From positions 54,699 through 118,698 of IMG/VR virus record IMGVR_UViG_3300045988_033017: 64,000 nucleotides of DNA, one strand, 5' to 3'. The notes beneath the pieces are model-generated. The model made no database searches. It was not told the origin of the DNA and was given only the letters and a program-made list of their open reading frames with translations. Of the stretch, positions 547 through 53,312 are shown in pieces; positions within the stretch are counted from its first letter, which is position 1; each line of letters opens with the position of its first letter. The position numbers and the translations under genes are program-made. Source of the stretch: a virus.

Positions 547-885
547 ATGATGCACTCAAGTCTATGGGGGGGGGTTCAGACCCTAGTTTTAACAACACAA
601 GATTTGATATATCCAGGTAGAAGTAGTAATATAGAGGTTAACAGTGCTGATAGTGCTGTAATGGAGATTGTGAAGTCTAATATGACAGACATGGTCCCAT
701 TTCAGTTACTGTATTATGGAGTATCTAATGGTGCGCCAACATGTATTAGTGTGACAATAATCGGAATTCCAATAGCTAATTTGTTCACATTATACGTAAA
801 TGTAAGTCAAGGTGGTTTACAGCGCTTTAGCATTAACAAAGGCTCCAATCAAAAGTGGATTGCTTCTACACTTAGTAATTCTTAA
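547..885 (+). CDS. hypothetical protein carrying a G9 tract at its N-terminus
   Basis: ORF track; G9 run at 566-574 encodes WGG; upstream ATG at 495 would join in frame with one G fewer. Confidence 0.4.
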   Translation: MMHSSLWGGVQTLVLTTQDLIYPGRSSNIEVNSADSAVMEIVKSNMTDMVPFQLLYYGVSNGAPTCISVTIIGIPIANLFTLYVNVSQGGLQRFSINKGSNQKWIASTLSNS

Positions 886-6227: not shown

Positions 6228-6899
6228 TTGCAATGTAAAAGAATTAACAACATGAGTAAAATAGCAACAGAATTAGAAGCTAAGACTATGGGGGGGGGGA
6301 CTCTCTCGGTAATTGATAATAAGTGCTGTACTAAAGCTAGAGCACTTGAATTAGGATGTCAGATTAAAAGTGGATTTAGTTATACTGATAATCAGTTAGT
6401 GGAGTTAGAAGGTATAGAGGCAGCTATAACTGCTCCAAATGTAATCCTTCATTATGGTTGGCAGGATATGCCAATTAATAATATACAGCAATTTAGAGTA
6501 CGTTTCTCATTTGTTAATGAGAGTTCAGTGAATGGAGAGCCATTTAAGTATTCTGACAATACTATGTACTTTACAATTACTCCAAGATTAGAGCAAGGAG
6601 AACAAACGTACACTAAGACTTTAGCAAATCCTCTTAAATATTACTTAGAGAAATTAGCACCTTCTAACCAAGACCCATATAATACACCTGTTTGGATACG
6701 TTTTGAGGGATACATGATGCTTAGGCAAGTATCTCAAATTACATTAGCAGTAGATTCTCAATCTGAGAATTGGGCAGAAGGAGTAACATTTCCTTCATCT
6801 GGAAAGTGGGTCAAAATGAATAATTCTGGTAGAGTATTTAGATTTACTGGTGGGGAAATAGACCTAAACATAGAACTGTATACAGCGTCAGCGCAATGA
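6228..6899 (+). CDS. hypothetical protein with in-frame G10 tract
   Basis: ORF track 223 aa; G10 at 6290-6299 encodes MGGG. Confidence 0.5.
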   Translation: MQCKRINNMSKIATELEAKTMGGGTLSVIDNKCCTKARALELGCQIKSGFSYTDNQLVELEGIEAAITAPNVILHYGWQDMPINNIQQFRVRFSFVNESSVNGEPFKYSDNTMYFTITPRLEQGEQTYTKTLANPLKYYLEKLAPSNQDPYNTPVWIRFEGYMMLRQVSQITLAVDSQSENWAEGVTFPSSGKWVKMNNSGRVFRFTGGEIDLNIELYTASAQ

Positions 6900-9971: not shown

Positions 9972-11056
9972 TTATGTATTAATTTTAATTACTTGTCTAG
10001 AATAGTCAGGCAAGTCAAGTATTTTATTACTTTGGTCAAATGTAGAAGCTGTATTCTGCAATAGGAGTCTTTTAGTTCCATTCGAACCAATTGCATACCA
10101 ATTTGAATCTACATATATTAAATCAGTAAGAGTATATTCACCTAGTGTAGATGTAGTCCAATTATTACCCCTATCTGTAGACACACTCTTCATATTATTT
10201 CCTATAAGCATAAATGTATTAGTCCCAGCTTCATTTACATACAATCCTTTAGTCAAACCTGTTAGTTGTGGTCTAGTGGTTGCAGCAGTCCATTGAGTTC
10301 CAGTTGGGTTAGTACTAACGTATGTATAATTACTTGTAGTGCTATATACTACACTTCTTGGTGAAGAATGAAACCCTTGTATTACTGCACTTGGTGTAAA
10401 CATTCCAGGAGTATAATAAGTAAGAGAATCTGGTACAGATGTAGCCAAGAAGGTATATATTCTAGCTCCTCCCTGATATGATGCCCCAACACAGCAGTAA
10501 TCATAAGGCCCAGTTGATATGCTACTGACTGGACCTACAACACTACGCTCCTTTACTGTACCGTCATCATACACTATAATAACATAGTTCTTATTGTCTC
10601 CTGCTGCTCCTTTATAAAATACCCAGCCAGTAGAGAATCTAGCCAAGTGAACATAAGCATAAGCTTTTACAGTATCTTTGTATTTTAATTCCCACTGTTT
10701 GGTAGACTGATTAACTACATACAATCCTCCAAGTATAGACAATGCTCCAATTGCTTCACCTTCTCCAGCTATGTATATAAAATCCTCATGGCCGTCTATA
10801 GCTGGAATTTGAGCATAGGTCCCACCGCCAGCAAAGTATAAACTACCTGTCTCCGTATTAATAAGGAATAAGTCTTTATTTACAACTATATCTTCTTCTT
10901 TAACTAATTGATTTGGCTGGTAGTTACTAGACGCAACTACGCTACCCCAGAGACTAACTATGGTTTGGTAGTGAGGACAATACCCCCCCCCTTCCCGTAA
11001 TCTATATTCTTACCTGTTAATTCGTTTAATTTACTTTGTGTTACTATTCTACTCAT
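9972..11056 (-). CDS. BNR/Asp-box repeat protein (putative receptor-binding or glycosidase-like); N-terminal 25 codons separated by a frameshift in a C9 tract
   Basis: ORF track body 9972..10742 contains the Asp-box STDRGNNWT and S/T/G/Y-rich beta-propeller composition. An ATG at 11056 with a 25-codon leader lies in a different frame; one extra C in the C9 run 10983-10991 fuses the leader and body into one protein of about 360 aa. Confidence 0.5.
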
Positions 11057-12328: not shown

Positions 12329-12460
12329 TGTTATAAATTTTAATTGTTATTAAATTCTGCGATTTAAGTTCGCAAATATATTACTATTTAATTTGACAAT
12401 ACAAAATTAGTTATATATTTCAATATTACCAAATGGTAATATAATTATTAATATATATTA

Positions 12461-12674
12461 TATATTGCCAACTCAAATTCACAGTTAATATTAAGTATAT
12501 TGCCAACTCGGAACTTCATGACGTGCTGTGGCAATCTGCGCCCCTTCGGGGCTTGCTTGCAATTAGTAAGATGAATAGAAATTAATATATATTGCCAACT
12601 CACAAGTACGGGTGCTCAAAATCACACCCCCTCCCACCCCGGGAGTGGGTCATCATATTATATATTGCCAACTC
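12461..12674. repeat. array of four direct repeats TATATTGCCAACTC (12461, 12496, 12588, 12661) interleaved with GC-rich hairpins
   Basis: Exact 14-nt motif repeated 4 times at irregular spacing in a 630-bp non-coding divergent intergenic region; hairpins GCCCC-UUCG-GGGGC and CCCAC...GTGGG lie between copies. Confidence 0.7.
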
Positions 12675-12985
12675 GGATGCTAGGTGAATATTGCAAGATT
12701 TGTGTATATTGCGGATACGACAGTCGTGTTACCCTTCACACCCCTCACCCATGTTTGGAGAAAATCAAAAGATTTATATCATTTGGTTTTGCTTTATAAT
12801 ATTCATTTTAAAATTATTAGAGTTATGTTTACTTATCTTTCAAACGGTTATGTTTTAGTTAATGCTACGCGTTGTATAATCACACGTGAAGAATGTGAAG
12901 AAATTAAAGCAAATCTAATTTAAAAGCTAATCAGAACGGACAAATAAGTCCGTTCTATATTGTTTCACTAATAAATTATTAAACT

Positions 12986-13468
12986 ATGAATTTAGCAGAA
13001 TTACAAGAAGTTAACAAGAAGTTACCGAAAGCAAGCAAAAACGAAATTGCGGCGGCTTTAAACCGTTTGGGTGTGAATCCTGATTCTATCAAGGTAGGCG
13101 ACAAATTGAAATTTCCCGCTGAAATTAACGAATTCAACGGAACAATCACAAAGGGTGTTGTAAATGGCAATACGTTCTTTCAAGTTGCCGTTGAGGTCAA
13201 TGGAGTGGCAAGAAACGTATCTATAAACTCTTTGTTCCGGTCTTTCAACGACCGTGAAAACAACAAGCGTATTACACCGGTTGACATTCTTCCAGAGGCG
13301 GACAAAGACAAATGTATTTTCAATATGTTTGAAAATAAGACAATAGCGGAATGTCTTGCAGATTTACAAGGTACGGAAGTAACCGCAAAGGCAATAGAAA
13401 CGTTTGAAAGCGTAGCAAGGGACGGCAGCCAAATGAACGTAAATGTTATTGCATATTGTAAGGAATAA
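12986..13468 (+). CDS. hypothetical protein (higher GC than neighbours)
   Basis: ORF track 160 aa; uses GCG/CCG/CGT codons that are rare elsewhere in the window. Confidence 0.5.
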   Translation: MNLAELQEVNKKLPKASKNEIAAALNRLGVNPDSIKVGDKLKFPAEINEFNGTITKGVVNGNTFFQVAVEVNGVARNVSINSLFRSFNDRENNKRITPVDILPEADKDKCIFNMFENKTIAECLADLQGTEVTAKAIETFESVARDGSQMNVNVIAYCKE

Positions 13469-15016: not shown

Positions 15017-15335
15017 TATTTTTACAGAAATGATATAATCTTCCACCATAATGGGTACGCCCGGAGACTAATGCAGAGTATCTTCCTTTAATACTGGAGA
15101 GATGTCTTATCGTGAGATAAGGCAAAGGAGTGTGGCACAGGAAGGTGGATTCCTTTACTTGTAATAATATTTTTGTTCATTTTATTACAGCATATCCTCC
15201 CGTGACGGGAGTGGCATCATGACTAAGCCTTTACGTGGCGATGCTATAAGTAAGTCAATAGACTGAAACTAATTAGTTCTTTATTAACGTTTCACTAAAA
15301 CCTCGTGAGTGTATAGGTAACTCATTAGATTAATT

Positions 15336-19003: not shown

Positions 19004-19685
19004 ATGGAACAAATAACTCGTAAGCTGCCAAGTCCATAATGGGTACGCCACTTAATGTGGCACAGGAGGATACTGGCTGCTATATTCATTATTTTAAATG
19101 AGACTCCTGGCATGAGAGTATAATCATGCCACTTATGGGCCATACATGGAATTGATTCATGATGACTGGGTAGTAAGACGTGTAGAGTTCGTACCAACTC
19201 TTTAATAATGATACGGCAATTTAAGTGGAAACACTACTTACAGAATGGCAGCCTAAGCTGCTGGCTTAATTAGTGGACGTCATTGATTAAGTCGGGTTAA
19301 TTGGAGAGACCTAGAAACAGAAGAGGTGTGGGAAGAAGCATATAGGGCAGTCCACTTAACTTGAAAGCCAAAGGTTAGTAAAGCTGAAATCTCCACTACC
19401 TATCTATGGGTTACAAATAGAAACGTTCTCCAACGTAAATGGAGTGGTGGAGCGACCGTTCGGTCAAGCCCAGTTTGGTAGTTTATGAACAACTAAGTCG
19501 TAGCCCTACGAGGGAGACGTAATTGGTGAATTAACACTCGGCTTCTTAGTAAAACTACCTACATGCTGAACTCAACAGCTGATGTAATAAAATAGAGACA
19601 CACGTAATCTTATTGTTTAGAGTTGTGAAGACCGCGGTTCGAGTCCGCGATGGTCCACTATTATTAACGTTTAAATATCAATTTT
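19004..19685 (+). other. 680-bp non-coding structured region ending in a tRNA T-arm plus acceptor-like minihelix (19626-19661)
   Basis: No ORF; 3' end CGCGG-TTCGAGT-CCGCG then GTCCACTA, which pairs with TAGTGGAC at 19268-19275 about 390 nt upstream; shares the motif CCATAATGGGTACGCC...TGTGGCACAGGA with 15046-15170. Confidence 0.4.
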
Positions 19686-20317: not shown

Positions 20318-20343
20318 TTGTTTCACTAAAAGTTATTGAAATT

Positions 20344-20841
20344 ATGGGAAAGAGGTCAATATCCGACGATGACATCGTTCGGATTTTTAACACGGTAAAG
20401 GCAATGAATCCTGGGCCTTTTAAGATTACAGATGTAGTCAGGGATTTAAAGAAGAATGGCTTCCCAAGGCCAGAGAACTTCATGGCTGTTTTGCGTAAGC
20501 AGGGAGTGATTGAACCTGACGGTGCTATCTATACTAAAGGATTTATGTGGAAAGAACATGGCCCTTTGTATAAGACTAGAGTCATTGAATTGATAACTAT
20601 CAGCAGGAAAGAAATGGCTAAGATACAGAGAGATGCATATGCTAAGAGAATGGCTATTAAAGCTGGCACTTACGTAGCACCTCCTAAACCTAAGCCACAA
20701 GCTGAAATGGAAGCTGTTACAGAAGCGGAAGAAGACAAACATCTGATTCCTATTACACAGGCTGAAATGGAAGCAATCAAATTCCTGAAATCGAGAGGTT
20801 ATAGAATCACTAAATTAATAACAGTTGAACAGATAGTATGA
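20344..20841 (+). CDS. hypothetical protein
   Basis: ORF track 165 aa. Confidence 0.5.
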   Translation: MGKRSISDDDIVRIFNTVKAMNPGPFKITDVVRDLKKNGFPRPENFMAVLRKQGVIEPDGAIYTKGFMWKEHGPLYKTRVIELITISRKEMAKIQRDAYAKRMAIKAGTYVAPPKPKPQAEMEAVTEAEEDKHLIPITQAEMEAIKFLKSRGYRITKLITVEQIV

Positions 20842-21533: not shown

Positions 21534-21913
21534 ATCCACTATTGACGAATGGTGGTAGCAAAACTTGGTCTGAAGAACCAGTAGACATATTCCGGAGTAT
21601 GTCTATGACTTAAAGGCTATATCAAAGAGTTGAAACCTGTATCTATTCGAACAGTAGAAGTTCACCTGATTAAGCATCAGAAAACAGTAGTGCAAATCTA
21701 CTATAGATATTGTGTAAGAGAGAATCTACACGGTCTGCATTATATAATCAGCATGCAGATAGGTCACCAAGCAAACCTCTTTCCTGCCTGGTCAAGTGTG
21801 CATTACGGTCTGTAAGTGGCGAGCGGGTTAACGTATGTCCGATTGCCGTAATGCCGCTTGTTTATTGTTTAGAATAAAGAAAGACTCTCATAACAATAAA
21901 TTTAAACAAAGAG

Positions 21914-23608
21914 ATGGAAATGAAAGGAGCACAAAGGCCAAGGAGGCCTTACCCTAATGCCGCACGTCAAAGGCGGGATGAGAATAAACCTAAGTTTGTG
22001 GATAATAATCAGTTATTCATAGACCAGTTTGTTAATCTTAAGAAATGTCTTCAGCCACGTACCTACGTGCAAGTGGCTAAAGATATGTATCCTTTATGGA
22101 AAGCTAATCCATTACTATGTACTAAGTTTACTGCATATACGAGAATGATAACTCGTAAATGTAGAATAACTACCCCGGAAGGAGTTATACAACTTGATAC
22201 ACAGCAAGGAGAAGGTTTGAAGAATGAAGGTATAATGAGAATGTTGTGGTTGGCAATCTATCACAAACCCACATTCCATGCCAACATTGTTTATTTTGCA
22301 GCAGCTGGATGCTGGAAAGATTTCATTACTATGATGGCTTTAGATGTTCAACTCCATGGCTTTAAGCACAGATTGGATTGGGACTTCTTCAAGAAAGTCA
22401 TATTCGCAGGTCTTGCCAACGGTCAGACATGTGATTTAGTAAAGAAGTATCTTCCTCGTGTTCGTTCCAGTGTTGCATGTAAGACAGATGAGGCAAAAGC
22501 ACGTAACACAGTAGCCAAATTCTTGGCGGAAGGCCTTTATGGTAAACCTAAGGACGAAGGAGACTATTCAACCTATCGTAAATATAGGAAGATGAAGAAT
22601 AGCGGGAAAGCAGCCCAATGGCAGCAGTTAATCAGTCAAAAGAAATTCTTGGAAATTGATTTTGACACTGTTACTGGAAAGGCGCTGGCACAGCTAGTAG
22701 GCTCTAAATTCCTCAAACATCAAGGTCTTAAAGAGAAGTATCAGAACTGGTTGAAGAACCGTAAGAAGCCCTCTAATAGCGGATTTCTACATACTCTGTT
22801 CAAACCATACGGATTGGATAAAATTGCCGAAGAGATTCCAGAATTTATGGAAACTTCTATTAATGCAAGTTTCAATGTATTTGTTGATAATGCTAAACGC
22901 AATAGAGTAGCTCCGTTGTTGGTAGTAAGAGATATAAGTCATTCTGCTAATGGTGAGATAGAGAATAGCGAAACATCTGCTTACAGTTTGGGTAAAGCAT
23001 ATGCTTTATATCATTCTGAATTACTTCCTACAATATTCAAGAACTCCTATGCCGTGTTAGAGGATAACATGGTTCTACGTAAGTTCAAAGGTCAGAATGT
23101 CATTGAGAAATGGAAATCTGACAAAGAAGAAGCATTATGCCAGAATCCTTCTATTATTAATATAGCAGAAATGCTGTGTAAAATGAAAGAAGATTATGGT
23201 GTGGATGAAGGAGAGTTCCCTAGAGGCTGTGTGGTAATTACTAACCATACATATTTTACCAAGTTGAACAACCAAGCATTCGTGGAATTTAAGCAGAGAT
23301 TGCTTAAAGCAAATTTCAGTAAGGAATTTGTAAGAGCATTCAAAGTTATCATTTGGAGAGTTCCTTTAGCATATAAGGGAAGACCTAATGTGGCTTTGGT
23401 TCCAGGAGTGTCAAATTGCTTCTTAGTAAATGGACTTAATAATTCAACATCCTCATTTATTACTGGAGAGAAGAGGTTCCAGGTGCCTAAAACCACTAGA
23501 GACATTTTTAAGCATGCTATGAATCAAGAGTTGCTTAATATGATGATTCTAGAGAAGGATGTTGTCAAGAAGAATGCAAGCGTGCAGAAGAAGCCTGTGA
23601 AGGCCTAA
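21914..23608 (+). CDS. Ro60/TROVE-like protein with C-terminal vWA domain (Rsr-like candidate)
   Basis: 564 aa; vWA MIDAS motif in APLLVVRDISHSANG (compare human Ro60 KRFLLAVDVSASM); upstream blocks MLWLAIY and LHTLFKPY resemble Ro60 PMLFALAI and LLRLSHLKP; architecture is an N-terminal alpha region of about 330 aa followed by vWA, as in TROVE proteins. Confidence 0.5.
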   Translation: MEMKGAQRPRRPYPNAARQRRDENKPKFVDNNQLFIDQFVNLKKCLQPRTYVQVAKDMYPLWKANPLLCTKFTAYTRMITRKCRITTPEGVIQLDTQQGEGLKNEGIMRMLWLAIYHKPTFHANIVYFAAAGCWKDFITMMALDVQLHGFKHRLDWDFFKKVIFAGLANGQTCDLVKKYLPRVRSSVACKTDEAKARNTVAKFLAEGLYGKPKDEGDYSTYRKYRKMKNSGKAAQWQQLISQKKFLEIDFDTVTGKALAQLVGSKFLKHQGLKEKYQNWLKNRKKPSNSGFLHTLFKPYGLDKIAEEIPEFMETSINASFNVFVDNAKRNRVAPLLVVRDISHSANGEIENSETSAYSLGKAYALYHSELLPTIFKNSYAVLEDNMVLRKFKGQNVIEKWKSDKEEALCQNPSIINIAEMLCKMKEDYGVDEGEFPRGCVVITNHTYFTKLNNQAFVEFKQRLLKANFSKEFVRAFKVIIWRVPLAYKGRPNVALVPGVSNCFLVNGLNNSTSSFITGEKRFQVPKTTRDIFKHAMNQELLNMMILEKDVVKKNASVQKKPVKA

Positions 23609-23985: not shown

Positions 23986-24105
23986 TTAATACCGAGCAAA
24001 CTTCTATCGTATTTAATACATATTAACTTTTACATGTGGGGAAGATTCATTACCTTTGCACTCACAATTCACAGTTAATATGGATTGTGTGATTCGGGCA
24101 CGTAA

Positions 24106-25926: not shown

Positions 25927-25998
25927 GCCCCATTACTTCAGTGGTAGAAGAGCAAATTCTAAACTTGTATGGCGTTGGTTCGAGTCCAACATGGGGCA
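25927..25998 (+). tRNA. tRNA with CTA anticodon (amber suppressor-like)
   Basis: Acceptor GCCCCAT/ATGGGGC, D-arm CTTC-AGTGGTA-GAAG, anticodon stem GCAAA/CTTGT, loop TTCTAAA gives CUA; T-arm GTTGG-TTCGAGT-CCAAC. Confidence 0.5.
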
Positions 25999-26000
25999 CT

Positions 26001-26071: not shown

Positions 26072-26106
26072 CTACAGTCATTGTGCATTTGCATTTTCAG
26101 AATGCT

Positions 26107-26171
26107 AAGAAGACAAACAGCAATTTCCTGTATGTTGGCATAAGTAAATGAATCTATTGTCTTCTGATGAT
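26107..26171 (+). repeat. tRNA-leader stem-loop element, copy a (AAGAAGAC...ACAGCA...GTCTTCTG)
   Basis: 8-bp inverted ends enclosing about 45 nt, immediately 5' of tRNA-Ile. Confidence 0.6.
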
Positions 26172-26274: not shown

Positions 26275-26347
26275 AAGAAGTCTTACAGCACGAAAGAAAG
26301 TGTTTCATATTTTATGATTTTAATTAAACTAAGAGACTTCTGTAGTT
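26275..26347 (+). repeat. tRNA-leader stem-loop element, copy b (AAGAAGTC...ACAGCAC...GACTTCTG)
   Basis: Inverted ends, 5' of tRNA-Pro. Confidence 0.55.
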
Positions 26348-26735: not shown

Positions 26736-26800
26736 AAGAAGGCGTACAGCACTAATCATTGTACAGTTTACATGTTTTTGATAACGCGCCTTCTGTGGAT
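26736..26800 (+). repeat. tRNA-leader stem-loop element, copy c (AAGAAGGC...ACAGCAC...GCCTTCTG)
   Basis: Inverted ends, 5' of tRNA-Lys. Confidence 0.55.
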
Positions 26801-37956: not shown

Positions 37957-38052
37957 CTACTAATTATTTCAGTTTAAAATAGGATTTATCATGAAGTCAC
38001 TAACAACACTACTCTTTGAGAACTGTTAATTGTGAGTAAACATGGGCGTTCG

Positions 38053-38126
38053 GGGCCCGTATCTCAATCGGTTAGAGAAACTGACTCATAATCAGGAGGT
38101 TGTCGGTTCAAGTCCGGCCGGGCCCA
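38053..38126 (+). tRNA. tRNA with CAT anticodon (Met or Ile2)
   Basis: Acceptor GGGCCCG/CGGGCCC, D-arm TCTC-AATCGGTTAG-AGA, anticodon loop CTCATAA; T-arm GTCGG-TTCAAGT-CCGGC. Confidence 0.6.
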
Positions 38127-38138
38127 CACAGTTAATAG

Positions 38139-38411
38139 TTGAATCGAATGAGTAAGGTAGTAGGTAGCATTGACGGCTACGATGTCATTTATGTGGAAGG
38201 CAAGAATATGATATTCTGTAAGAATACTATATTACCCTTTCCACTCATTAAAAGAATTATCAGAGGAGGTCTATGTAGGGAAACAATCGAAGAGAAGAAC
38301 CTGACTATCACTCAAGACGGTTCTATTATTCAACTTGGTTGTTTAACTACAACAAGAGAGAATTGTGAGGCAATCATTAAAGAAGTAAATAAGATTAATA
38401 AACCTAATTAA
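38139..38411 (+). CDS. hypothetical protein
   Basis: ORF track 90 aa. Confidence 0.4.
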   Translation: MNRMSKVVGSIDGYDVIYVEGKNMIFCKNTILPFPLIKRIIRGGLCRETIEEKNLTITQDGSIIQLGCLTTTRENCEAIIKEVNKINKPN

Positions 38412-39919: not shown

Positions 39920-40138
39920 ATGAAACATTTATTGATATTCCTATTAGTCTTATTAATGTCTGCAACTAAGGTGGATAACACACCTAGAGACTTTCATGTA
40001 AGTATAGTAGGAGAAGAGAAAGTAGAACAATTTGAATCCAAATTCCCTCAAATAGTTAAGGACGAAGCCGTGTATATTGCATATCTTCAGCGATACTATA
40101 GAGGACATGAAGATGAATTTATCAATTTGATGAAGTAA
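39920..40138 (+). CDS. hypothetical secreted protein
   Basis: ORF track 72 aa; N-terminal signal-like helix. Confidence 0.4.
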   Translation: MKHLLIFLLVLLMSATKVDNTPRDFHVSIVGEEKVEQFESKFPQIVKDEAVYIAYLQRYYRGHEDEFINLMK

Positions 40139-53039: not shown

Positions 53040-53312
53040 TTCTTATGTATGGTGATAGGTTATGGAATAGACATTCCAGCCAAAATATCACTAGGGGGGG
53101 GGGTGTAGGCTCTTCTTCGTTGCTCCTAGCAACACACCTAATGCCAATCCTTGGTATTATTGTTATCATCTATGATAACGGACTTTAGGCTACGTTATAT
53201 TTAATGTAGTGCTAATCGCGCAGAACGATATTCGTACTGCCGTTTAGGGTCAAATTCAGATTAGTTATTAGATTATTCTTTACTTCTAATGAGGTAAGGT
53301 CTACTCTAGTGA

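What the first reader, a model, noticed from the sequence alone, without database searches (positions are those of the whole stretch)
12354..12985. Divergent control region with a 4x TATATTGCCAACTC repeat array and GC-rich tetraloop hairpins
The 630-bp non-coding interval between the minus-strand unit (ends 12328) and the plus-strand unit (starts 12986) contains four exact 14-nt direct repeats at irregular spacings (35, 92 and 73 nt). Stable small hairpins (GCCCC-UUCG-GGGGC; CCCAC...GTGGG) sit between them. The motif AATTCACAGTTAATA here recurs at 24071 just upstream of tRNA-Tyr. This is a candidate origin of replication (iterons) or a bank of phage-specific promoters driving small RNAs.
Basis: seen in the sequence. 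Interest (0 to 1): 0.55.

Follow-up and report, generated by a model that had tools for sequence, protein, structure and literature searches.

The report
Phage early promoter and small-RNA array
The four identical 14-base repeats most likely mark a bank of near-identical early promoters in a large human-gut phage, each heading a short non-coding RNA unit; they do not look like a replication origin, so this is an uncharacterised example of a familiar kind of phage control region.

Summary
The repeat array is real: four exact copies at the stated spacings, far more than chance. About 70 related human-gut contigs carry it, including clades whose nearby ParB-like protein is only 60-65% identical.

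Each copy keeps a fixed distance to its own conserved downstream module. The distance to the upstream module changes through inserted units, tandem-repeat expansion, cassette replacement and a ~0.9-kb gene insertion.

A fifth, leftward copy carries a canonical Bacteroidota -7 promoter box (TATATTTG) 44 nt before the leftward gene. The tRNA-Tyr upstream region is a further relative.

The array ends in a conserved hairpin plus U-tract whose substitutions preserve pairing only in plus-strand RNA.

GC skew follows gene orientation only, and spacing is irregular.

Best reading (about 0.55): a divergent early promoter bank whose rightward copies drive three short non-coding RNAs with C-rich motifs, closed by an intrinsic terminator. 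No transcript data exist. Operators, iterons and a cis-acting leader remain possible.

- The interval holds a real 32-codon gene.
- The first hairpin has a 3-nt loop, not a tetraloop.
- The 15-mer recurs at 24066, not 24071.

The parts
12361..12380 (-). Leftward copy of the motif. It reads TATATTTGCGAACTTAAATC on the minus strand, a canonical TAnnTTTG -7 box, 44 nt upstream of the ATG (12328) of the leftward 84-aa gene. Proposed promoter of the leftward operon.
   Evidence: 16 of 19 positions identical to copy 1 plus its flank, with one 1-nt gap. The box and CGAA are conserved in clade A while the downstream part varies. Clade B has TATAATTGCGAACTCAAATC.
12381..12460 (.). AT-rich spacer (16-18% GC) between the divergent promoters. 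It contains the palindrome ATTACCAAATGGTAAT (12425-12440), made of two motif-like half-sites.
   Evidence: The palindrome is absent from clades B and C.
12461..12474 (+). Motif copy 1 (TATATTGCCAACTC), a -7-box-like TATATTGC plus CAACTC. Predicted start near 12470-12472. It heads only a 21-nt AT-rich stretch (12475-12495) and so acts as a tandem upstream promoter of copy 2.
   Evidence: The 16 nt that follow (12476-12491) are identical to 24066-24081 upstream of tRNA-Tyr, where a TACCTTTG box lies at the same 15-nt distance.
12496..12509 (+). Motif copy 2, proposed promoter of unit b.
   Evidence: Clades B and C have TTAATTGCCAACTC here.
12510..12570 (+). Unit b. A 17-nt weakly constrained segment of fixed length (12510-12526) is followed by an invariant scaffold: TGTGGCAAT (12527-12535, inverted half-copy of the motif), hairpin GCCCC-UUC-GGGGC (12540-12552), then UUGCUUGCAAUUAGUAAG.
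   Evidence: The scaffold is identical across clades A-C. There is one compensatory C-G to U-A change (L253, L280), and the loop's middle base varies U/G/C. About 9 variants of the 17-nt segment occur in 86 loci.
12588..12601 (+). Motif copy 3, proposed promoter of unit c.
   Evidence: Variants are TATATTGCCGACTC (L272) and TATATTACCAATTC (L275). The distance to AGTAYGGGT is fixed at 3 nt in all clades.
12602..12660 (+). Unit c. It comprises helix GGGU(G)/(C)ACCC (12610-12629), a C-rich tract CACACCCCCUCCCACCCC (12623-12640), hairpin CCCAC-N7-GUGGG (12633-12649), and an A/U-rich tail.
   Evidence: The hairpin is kept as CCCC-UAUAC-GGGG in clade C. The central 7 nt are reverse-complemented between strains. 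No significant covariation.
12661..12674 (+). Motif copy 4, distal promoter of unit d.
   Evidence: It is lost in strains with a gene inserted between units c and d (L304, L301, L280) and duplicated in L306.
12675..12725 (+). Variable 5' part of unit d. It includes an 18-nt tandem repeat (G/T)ATATTGCAAGATTTGTG, 1.5 copies in the window (12686-12712). The repeat ends in a proximal TATATTGC box (12705-12712) that lies 21 nt before GTGTTACCC.
   Evidence: 3-4 or more repeat copies in L309, L294 and L291. An alternative cassette occurs in L260, L276, L290, L302 and L319. Other cassettes occur in L253, L271, L272 and L275. A TAnn box at a fixed 21 nt is seen in every cassette.
12726..12760 (+). Conserved core of unit d: GUGUUACCC-N3-ACACCCCUCACC (C-rich, predicted single-stranded) plus a small hairpin (12748-12758).
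   Evidence: It is nearly invariant even where the neighbouring 160-aa protein is only 80% identical (L252) and in clades B and C. It is absent from 185,579 bacterial and archaeal species genomes.
12761..12795 (+). Intrinsic-terminator-like element that closes the array. Stem AAAAUCAAA(A)GAU / AUC(A)UUUGGUUUU is followed by GCUUU.
   Evidence: 97% of cells paired, 5 pairs changed on one side only (all to G.U or U-A), and 1 compensatory C-G to G-C pair; 163 of 168 cells pair on the + strand against 149 of 168 on the - strand.
12825..12923 (+). Small protein gene (32 aa, MFTYLSNGYVLVNATRCIITREECEEIKANLI). It is the first rightward coding gene and is not part of the non-coding array.
   Evidence: Several divergent alleles keep the reading frame and an NG...NG...E(Y/C)(K/E)E pattern. 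The gene is absent in clade C.
12933..12971 (+). Terminator hairpin (12933-12956) overlapping TATATTGTTTCACTAA (12956-12971), a further TATATTG box 30 nt upstream of the 160-aa gene (ATG at 12986).
   Evidence: TTGTTTCACTAA recurs exactly 26 nt upstream of the ATG at 20344.

Best explanation
This is the divergent early control region of a ~180-kb human-gut phage with a Bacteroidota-type host, probably related to the large crAss-like phages.

The 14-mer is a promoter core. TATATTGC is a variant of the Bacteroidota sigma-A -7 box (TAnnTTTG), preceded by the usual AT-rich spacer. CAACTC covers the start site, predicted 3-5 nt after the box. One copy with a perfect box fires leftward into the minus-strand operon. 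Four copies, plus one or two partial ones, fire rightward.

The rightward copies head short non-coding units:
- Unit b, about 55 nt: a GC hairpin scaffold.
- Unit c, about 55-60 nt: two hairpins and a C-rich tract.
- Unit d, about 80-125 nt: a variable 5' part, the C-rich core ACACCCCUCACC and an intrinsic terminator at 12761-12795.

The protein genes that follow have their own start signals.

Shown: the repeats, their conservation, the modular linkage, and the plus-strand RNA hairpin plus U-tract. Inferred: that the motif initiates transcription, the start sites, the RNA ends, and any function in trans of the C-rich RNAs.
For: 1. Four exact co-oriented copies, far above chance. They are kept with the same spacing in all close relatives (23 distinct sequences; 70 arrays). 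They are also kept, as TATTGCCAACTC, in clades whose ParB-like protein is 60-65% identical.
2. Each copy stays at a fixed distance from its downstream module: 17 nt to TGTGGCAAT, 3 nt to AGTAYGGGT, and 21 nt from the proximal box to GTGTTACCC. Upstream distances change through inserted units.
3. The units are autonomous. A 308-aa minus-strand gene is inserted between units c and d in L304, L301 and L280. It removes copy 4 but keeps a TAnn box 21 nt before the d core. L306 duplicates a unit.
4. A leftward copy, TATATTTGCGAACTTAAATC, has a canonical TAnnTTTG box 44 nt before the leftward ATG. The box is conserved and the sequence after it is variable.
5. The tRNA-Tyr upstream region has TACCTTTG at the same 15-nt distance from a 16-nt stretch identical to the flank of copy 1.
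6. The host type fits. Only 1 of 48 ORFs has a Shine-Dalgarno sequence, and upstream regions are A/T-rich and G-poor. The nearest DnaB relatives are gut, crAss-like, Bacteroides and Flavobacterium phages. The published consensus is a -7 TAnnTTTG box with an AT-rich spacer (PMC7366714).
7. The terminator helix is 97% paired, with 5 one-sided changes that all keep pairing and 1 compensatory change. It pairs better on the + strand (163 versus 149 of 168 cells).
8. There is a precedent. In the crAss-like phage phi14:2, two long early intergenic regions give very abundant rightward non-coding RNAs of unknown function (bioRxiv 10.1101/2020.03.07.982082).
Against: - There are no transcript data of any kind.
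- TATATTGC matches only 4 of the 6 specified positions of TAnnTTTG, and no -33 TTTG lies at the right distance (sequence).
- The 14-mer is confined to this locus within 64 kb, so it is not the phage's general promoter.
- With the loose pattern, the hits other than the four repeats (4, against 2.1 expected for the pattern as a whole) are no more than chance would give.
- Whole-region and per-unit folds are no more stable than shuffles (z from -0.3 to -1.3).
- The hairpins of units b and c lack a clear U-tract, and the terminator scan flagged none there.
- An inverted half-copy, a palindrome of motif-like half-sites, recurrent ~35-nt pairs of copies, and variable-number tandem repeats would also suit a DNA-binding protein.
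Confidence: 0.55

Rival explanations
1. The repeats are operator or activator sites. The 14-mer (core ATTRCCA) would be the binding site of a phage-encoded or host DNA-binding protein that switches the divergent early promoters on or off. The real promoter elements would lie in the AT-rich stretches beside the repeats.
For: - Exact 14-nt identity among copies, including bases downstream of the box, is more than host promoters usually share.
- There is an inverted half-copy, TGTGGCAAT, at 12527-12535.
- The palindrome ATTACCAAATGGTAAT lies at 12425-12440.
- Copies recur in pairs about 31-37 nt apart in several clades.
- TTGCCA plus an AT-rich hexamer 15-17 nt downstream resembles a -35/-10 pair at copies 1 and 4.
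Against: - No DNA-binding gene was identified next to the region. The 160-aa neighbour shows only a weak OB-fold/SSB-like resemblance.
- The palindrome is absent from clades B and C.
- All full copies point the same way as the downstream conserved modules, at fixed distances. That fits start-site positioning better than operators do.
- The leftward copy carries a canonical -7 box.
- This reading is compatible with the best explanation rather than exclusive of it.
Confidence: 0.15
2. The region is a replication origin. The direct repeats would be iterons bound by an initiator, the AT-rich stretch at 12350-12460 would be the unwinding element, and the promoters and hairpins would assist priming.
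For: - Direct repeats lie next to a 16-18% GC stretch.
- Tandem repeats vary in number in the same region.
- The location is a strand-switch point.
- In a zeta crAss-like phage, Ori-Finder placed an origin at the start of the forward tRNA and replication block. This is software only (PMC12386605).
- Several phage origins contain promoters (T7 and T4; established knowledge).
Against: - Spacings of 35, 92 and 73 nt are irregular and not in helical phase.
- In relatives, spacing and copy number change through inserted units and a 0.9-kb gene, and copy 4 can be lost.
- The sequences between the repeats are as conserved as the repeats and carry RNA-type constraints.
- GC skew is positive on both sides and negative only over the 2.3-kb minus-strand block, so it follows transcription.
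- No initiator is adjacent, and the DnaB-like helicase is 49 kb away.
- The motif is 14 nt, shorter than typical 17-22-bp iterons (established knowledge).
Confidence: 0.1
3. The region is a cis-acting leader rather than separate small RNAs. It would be one long 5' leader of the rightward early operon. Its hairpins would be binding sites or RNA elements for processive antitermination (nut/put-like), and the hairpin at 12761-12795 would be a regulated attenuator.
For: - A conserved terminator sits directly upstream of the first rightward genes.
- Small GC hairpins of boxB-like size lie downstream of the promoters.
- In clade C the terminator lies immediately before the 161-aa gene.
- Units b and c lack convincing terminators of their own.
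Against: - Independent promoter-like boxes precede each unit, and a further TATATTG box and a TATAAT lie after the terminator.
- A minus-strand gene can be inserted in the middle of the supposed leader.
- No N- or Q-like protein, and no put-like RNA family, was detected.
Confidence: 0.12
4. The motif is a promoter, but for a phage polymerase. It would be recognised by a virion-delivered or phage-encoded RNA polymerase or sigma-like factor (an immediate-early class, as in N4 or crAss-like phages), not by host sigma-A.
For: - The 12-14 nt around the start are conserved across copies and clades, as in T7-type promoters.
- The motif is restricted to one small immediate-early cluster, like the three N4 virion-polymerase promoters (established knowledge).
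- crAss-like phages transcribe early genes with a virion polymerase.
Against: - In phi14:2, early transcripts made by the virion polymerase had no common upstream motif.
- The leftward copy and the tRNA-Tyr relative carry perfect host-type TAnnTTTG boxes.
- No polymerase gene was identified in the window. The rest of the genome was not examined.
Confidence: 0.12

Closest known systems
Tandem early promoters of lytic phages (T7 A1/A2/A3; phi29 A2b/A2c/A3 divergent cluster)
   Same: Several strong co-oriented promoters are packed into 200-300 bp at the head of the early region. In phi29 they are arranged divergently with another promoter. (Established knowledge.)
   Different: Here the copies are identical over 14 nt, including the start region. 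They head distinct conserved non-coding modules that end at a terminator before the first gene. The box is Bacteroidota-type rather than -35/-10.
Bacteroidota sigma-ABfr promoter (-7 TAnnTTTG, -33 TTTG, AT-rich spacer; PMC7366714)
   Same: The motif has TA-nn-TT at the right positions with an AT-rich upstream spacer. The leftward copy (TATATTTG) and the tRNA-Tyr relative (TACCTTTG) match the box exactly.
   Different: The four repeats read TATATTGC, one T short, matching 4 of the 6 specified positions. No -33 TTTG is present. Seven further bases are conserved.
Abundant early non-coding RNAs from long intergenic regions of crAss-like phage phi14:2 (bioRxiv 10.1101/2020.03.07.982082)
   Same: The host is Bacteroidota, the intergenic regions are long and lie in the early module, and transcription runs rightward in the gene direction. 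Function is unknown.
   Different: The phi14:2 RNAs were seen by RNA-seq, whereas this array is only predicted. phi14:2 early transcripts had no shared upstream motif.
Iteron-type origins (lambda ori, plasmid oriV, T4 oriE)
   Same: Direct repeats lie beside an AT-rich stretch, and repeat number varies among relatives.
   Different: The spacing is irregular and unphased. The repeats are 14 nt. The spacers are conserved and structured. A gene insertion and the loss of a copy are tolerated. There is no skew switch and no adjacent initiator.
C-rich-seed small RNAs such as RsaE/RoxS of Firmicutes (established knowledge)
   Same: These are short RNAs with exposed C-rich tracts and a terminator hairpin. 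The C-rich tracts are the most conserved unpaired parts.
   Different: There is no sequence or Rfam relationship. The host phylum rarely uses Shine-Dalgarno sites, the usual targets of such seeds. No target was identified.

Membership tests
Bacteroidota sigma-A (sigma-ABfr) promoter | -7 box TAnnTTTG | tested here: inconclusive
   The four repeats read TATATTGC (TA and TT match, the last two positions do not). The leftward copy (TATATTTG) and the tRNA-Tyr relative (TACCTTTG) match fully.
Bacteroidota sigma-A (sigma-ABfr) promoter | -33 TTTG about 19-21 nt upstream of the -7 box | tested here: not met
   No TTTG lies at that distance upstream of any of the four copies (read directly). The element is reported as weak or undetectable in some Bacteroidota (PMC7366714).
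Bacteroidota sigma-A (sigma-ABfr) promoter | AT-rich spacer upstream of the -7 box | tested here: met
   Each copy is preceded by 10-40 nt of almost pure A/T (the consensus is described).
Bacteroidota sigma-A (sigma-ABfr) promoter | Transcription start a few nt downstream of the box | not testable with these tools
   No transcript data. The contig ends at AACTC in L256 and L257 are assembly breakpoints, because the other ends coincide in four contigs.
Iteron-containing replication origin | Three or more direct repeats of about 17-22 bp, regularly spaced or in helical phase | tested here: not met
   The repeats are 14 nt. Spacings are 35, 92 and 73 nt, and differ again in clades B and C.
Iteron-containing replication origin | Adjacent AT-rich unwinding region | tested here: met
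   12350-12460 is 16-18% GC.
Iteron-containing replication origin | Initiator gene adjacent, or the origin inside it | tested here: inconclusive
   Flanking proteins have no Pfam or PHROG function. The 160-aa protein model matches OB-fold/SSB proteins only weakly (E about 0.04, TM 0.2-0.35).
Iteron-containing replication origin | Strand-composition switch at the origin | tested here: not met
   GC skew is positive from 1-9.8 kb and from 13-64 kb, and negative only over the minus-strand genes. Only 64 of about 180 kb could be examined.
Intrinsic (Rho-independent) terminator | Stable hairpin immediately followed by a U-rich tract on the transcribed strand | tested here: met
   The 12761-12795 helix is 97% paired across 14 distinct sequences, with one compensatory and five wobble-preserving changes. 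It is followed by UUUUGCUUU, and pairing favours the + strand. For units b and c the feature is not met.
Any described RNA family (Rfam 15) | Match to a covariance model | tested here: not met
   There is no hit at gathering score. Only chance-level hits (E from 1 to 8) occur in the window region and in clades B and C.
CRISPR array, or solitary repeat units (RNA anti-CRISPR) | Repeats of about 23-50 nt with unique spacers of regular length, or a copy of a host CRISPR repeat | tested here: not met
   The repeats are 14 nt, the intervals are irregular, and the 'spacers' are conserved across strains. There is no CRISPR-DR hit in the array. The unit b and d scaffolds are absent from 185,579 species genomes.

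The most novel reading that the evidence does not exclude
The array would encode a phage-specific family of small trans-acting RNAs. Their conserved, exposed C-rich tracts (CACACCCCCUCCCAC, ACACCCCUCACC, and GACCCCCACCC in the alternative cassettes) would be the active part. Their 5' portions would be remodelled quickly by cassette exchange, tandem-repeat expansion and recombination between units.

One concrete possibility is that these tracts pair with the unusual G9-G10 runs found in the sense strand of at least five genes of the same phage, and so control those genes. Another is that they titrate a host C-binding or G-rich partner early in infection.
Probability: 0.15. Interest if true: 0.7.

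Novelty: new member of a known kind. Interest (0 to 1): 0.42.

Why it matters
Large crAss-related phages are among the most abundant viruses in the human gut, and almost nothing is known about how they start infection.

If this reading holds, it gives three things:
- A sequence-level early promoter class for an uncultured Bacteroidota phage lineage.
- Three candidate early non-coding RNAs with no described family.
- A defined locus in which to look for the abundant early non-coding transcripts so far seen only in phi14:2.

The start and end positions predicted here can be checked directly in existing gut metatranscriptomes. It also warns against calling origins from repeats plus AT-richness alone.

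Tried and rejected
1. Known RNA families: nothing was found in the window region or in the divergent relatives.
2. Similarity to deposited phages: blastn found no match. Only distant protein matches appeared.
3. General promoter idea: all seven TATATTGC sites are on the + strand, but the one at 40073 lies inside a plausible 72-aa gene, so this argument was dropped. Intergenic k-mer enrichment gave no shared promoter motif elsewhere in the window.
4. 'Guide-like hypervariable loop' in unit b: rejected. Only about 9 variants occur among 86 loci, so the segment is merely less constrained. No complementary target was found in the window.
5. Physical genome end near the array: rejected. The region lies at different distances from the contig ends in 171-185-kb contigs.
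6. Contig starts at AACTC as evidence for start sites: rejected as assembly breakpoints.
7. Gapped-motif scan of viral contigs: gave mostly chance hits.
8. Host copies of the unit b and d scaffolds: none found in 185,579 species genomes.
9. The ParB-like protein as binder: it has no Pfam hit, and the name comes from one source record only. TGTTTCAC at 12960 is only a half parS-like site. This was not pursued further.
10. Global RNA stability: not significant on either strand.
Full report
**Observation**

The 14-mer TATATTGCCAACTC occurs four times exactly, all on the + strand, at 12461, 12496, 12588 and 12661 (spacings 35, 92, 73). With up to two mismatches the window holds 7 matches against 0.79 expected, and none of 100 shuffles reached 7. 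The copies lie in a GC island (38-48% GC at 12450-12750) between stretches of 16-27% GC. Both hairpins exist.

Four details of the finding need correction.
- The interval contains a real 32-codon gene at 12825-12923, followed by a terminator at 12933-12956.
- The first hairpin is GCCCC-UUC-GGGGC, 5 bp with a 3-nt loop, not a UUCG tetraloop. The compensatory variant GCUCC-UUC-GGAGC and the free middle loop base (U/G/C) fit that register.
- The 15-mer recurs at 24066, not 24071, and the identity extends to 16 nt.
- Additional partial, inverted and leftward copies exist.

**Context**

The window belongs to a large phage.
- It carries 29 tRNA genes, including a CUA suppressor, plus a tmRNA and a RAGATH-34 RNA.
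- Contigs with the same locus are 171-185 kb long, and the locus lies at different distances from their ends. The map is therefore circular or permuted, and the array is not at a fixed end.
- All related contigs come from human-gut samples.
- Only 1 of 48 ORFs has a Shine-Dalgarno sequence, and start codons are preceded by A/T-rich, G-poor sequence.
- The DnaB-like helicase is closest to uncultured gut, crAss-like, Bacteroides and Flavobacterium phages.

Together these point to a Bacteroidota host. The genome size, the tRNA block and an unused amber suppressor resemble what is described for zeta crAss-like phages (PMC12386605). I did not test membership of that group.

**Comparative anatomy**

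Close relatives keep four copies with spacings of 35/92/72-73 (15 IMG/VR loci, then 41 metagenome loci). Three more distant clades were reached through homologues of the ParB-like protein, at 88%, 65% and 60% identity. In these clades the core TATTGCCAACTC persists. Variants occur: TTAATTGCCAACTC, TATATTGCCGACTC, TATATTACCAATTC, and the degenerate TATGCC(A/G)TTTC and TATATTACCATTTA. Extra short or long units are inserted.

The decisive pattern is linkage. Each copy keeps a fixed distance to its downstream module:
- 17 nt to TGTGGCAAT in unit b;
- 3 nt to AGTAYGGGT in unit c;
- 21 nt from the proximal TAnn box to GTGTTACCC in unit d.

The distance to the upstream module is free.

The units behave as autonomous cassettes.
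- In L304, L301 and L280 a 308-aa minus-strand gene is inserted between units c and d. It deletes copy 4 but leaves a TAnn box 21 nt before the d core.
- L306 duplicates a unit by recombination between the C-rich tracts of units c and d.
- The 5' part of unit d carries an 18-nt tandem repeat, with 1.5 to at least 4 copies, or is replaced by other cassettes.

**Promoter reading**

On the minus strand at 12380->12361 lies TATATTTGCGAACTTAAATC. This is a copy of the motif with one extra T. The extra T makes it a perfect Bacteroidota -7 box (TAnnTTTG), 44 nt upstream of the ATG of the leftward 84-aa gene. In relatives the box is conserved while the sequence after it varies. Clade B has TATAATTGCGAACTCAAATC.

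Upstream of tRNA-Tyr, TACCTTTG lies at the same 15-nt distance from a 16-nt stretch identical to the flank of copy 1. The published consensus is a -7 box and a weaker -33 box separated by an AT-rich spacer (PMC7366714). Every copy here is preceded by an AT-rich stretch.

I therefore read TATATTGC as a -7-box variant and CAACTC as the start region, with predicted starts 3-5 nt after the box. This is inference.

Several points weaken it.
- The four repeats match only 4 of the 6 specified box positions.
- There is no -33 TTTG.
- The motif is not used elsewhere in the 64 kb.
- A loose pattern finds 8 sites against 2.1 expected. The hits other than the four repeats (4, against 2.1 expected for the pattern as a whole) are no more than chance would give.

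**RNA-level evidence**

The array ends in a hairpin plus U-tract at 12761-12795. Across 14 distinct sequences:
- 97% of cells in the helix are paired;
- five pairs change on one side only, always to G.U or U-A;
- one pair shows a compensatory C-G to G-C change.

Read on the minus strand, the same substitutions give C.A mismatches: 149 of 168 cells pair, against 163 of 168 on the plus strand. Plus-strand RNA therefore runs through unit d and is selected to fold there. Because the genes to the left point away, that RNA must start inside the array.

The core of unit d (GUGUUACCC-N3-ACACCCCUCACC) and the unit b scaffold are nearly invariant, even where the neighbouring proteins are 60-80% identical.

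The other RNA evidence is weak.
- Folding energies are not better than shuffles.
- Unit c shows no covariation.
- Units b and c lack clear U-tracts.

Neither scaffold occurs in 185,579 bacterial and archaeal species genomes. No Rfam family matches.

**Origin reading**

Against an origin:
- GC skew is positive on both sides of the locus and negative only over the 2.3-kb minus-strand block, so it tracks transcription.
- The spacing is irregular, and relatives tolerate insertions and the loss of a copy.
- The neighbours have no initiator-like domain.
- A model of the 160-aa protein (pLDDT 79) resembles OB-fold/SSB proteins only weakly.

In favour:
- the AT-rich stretch beside the repeats;
- the variable tandem repeats;
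- a software origin call at a comparable place in a zeta crAss-like phage.

I put the origin reading at about 0.1.

**Other rivals**

Three further readings remain open and are partly compatible with the best explanation.
- A DNA-binding protein recognising ATTRCCA. The inverted half-copy, the palindrome at 12425-12440 and the copy pairs about 35 nt apart point this way.
- A single cis-acting leader with an attenuator.
- Recognition of the motif by a phage polymerase.

**Comparison and verdict**

The closest parallels are:
- the tandem early promoters of T7 and phi29;
- the Bacteroidota -7-box promoter;
- the abundant early non-coding RNAs from long intergenic regions of the crAss-like phage phi14:2, whose function is unknown.

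The locus is a new member of these known kinds: a new promoter variant and three undescribed candidate RNAs. It is not a new kind of system. Confidence in the promoter-plus-small-RNA reading is about 0.55, and interest is moderate (0.42). The most novel reading still open is that these are trans-acting C-rich RNAs, possibly paired with the G9-G10 tracts found in the sense strand of several genes of the same phage. I rate that at about 0.15.

Noticed in passing
window 12825-12923 (terminator 12933-12956): A 32-aa gene sits inside the supposedly non-coding interval. At least four divergent allele groups keep the frame and a shared pattern (M-x-T-x-x-x-NG...NG/NA...E-Y/C-K/E-E). The gene is absent in the most distant clade (L275).
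   Followed up: partly
window 26103-26171, 26276-26347, 26737-26800, 28697-28752, 33013-33079, 35261-35302: At least six tRNA genes (Ile, Pro, Lys, Arg-UCU, Ser-GCU, Thr) are directly preceded by a shared leader: AGAAG-N4-ACAGCAC...N4-CUUCUG(N2)GAU. Its 9-bp closing helix shows compensatory changes in 4 pairs. There is no Rfam match. The leader lies upstream of the tRNA, unlike the published theta ribozymes, which sit at the tRNA 3' end. It may be a processing element or ribozyme.
   Followed up: partly
window 566-574, 1239-1247, 6290-6299, 53094-53103 (+) and 10983-10991 (C run, so G on the minus, sense strand): There are five G9-G10 homopolymer runs, about 0.05 expected, all in the sense strand of genes and all encoding Gly-Gly-Gly. 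Relatives show length polymorphism (8, 9 or 10) at homologous sites. They may be slippage or phase-variation sites.
   Followed up: partly
window 12638-12644: The central 7 nt of the unit c hairpin (CCCGGGA) are the exact reverse complement of the version in most relatives (TCCCGGG). This is a hairpin-loop inversion of the kind produced by template switching at quasi-palindromes.
   Followed up: partly
L304 7244-8170 (also L301, L280): Some strains carry a 308-aa minus-strand gene inserted between units c and d. It has weak winged-helix hits at its N-terminus and a C-terminal '...SIDRI-x3-GY...' region. It looks like a mobile, homing-endonuclease-like insertion.
   Followed up: partly
window 21536-21643 and 21914-23608: A RAGATH-34 RNA (119 bits) lies just upstream of a 564-aa protein that matches PHROG 850, 'RNA-binding protein'. 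They may form an RNA-protein pair.
   Followed up: no
window 12960-12971 and 20318-20329 (variants at 15287, 26538): TTGTTTCACTAA occurs exactly 26 nt upstream of the ATG of two genes (12986, 20344), each time preceded by TA(T)ATTG. A 2-mismatch variant precedes the ParB-like gene. It may be a promoter or leader element. TGTTTCAC is also half of a canonical parS site.
   Followed up: partly
window 38025-38140: tRNA-Met at 38053-38127 is flanked by CTGTTAATTGTG upstream and CACAGTTAATAG downstream. These can form a 12-bp leader-trailer helix including two G.U pairs. CACAGTTAATA is also part of the 16-mer shared by copy 1 and the tRNA-Tyr leader.
   Followed up: no
window 12986-13468: The first large rightward gene (160 aa) has no family match. 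Its predicted structure (pLDDT 79, pTM 0.73) weakly resembles OB-fold single-strand-binding proteins and DUF669 phage proteins. The best viral match has E 4e-6 and TM 0.53 and is uncharacterised.
   Followed up: partly
window 25927-25999; 19137-19660: An amber-suppressor tRNA (anticodon CUA) and a 524-nt tmRNA gene lie in a window whose ORFs read through normally in the standard code. [quoted passage not shown]
   Followed up: no
L306 (array region): One strain carries five motif copies. Recombination between the C-rich tracts of units c and d (CACACCCCTC) duplicated the segment from the unit c hairpin to the d core. This supports the paralogy of the two tracts.
   Followed up: partly
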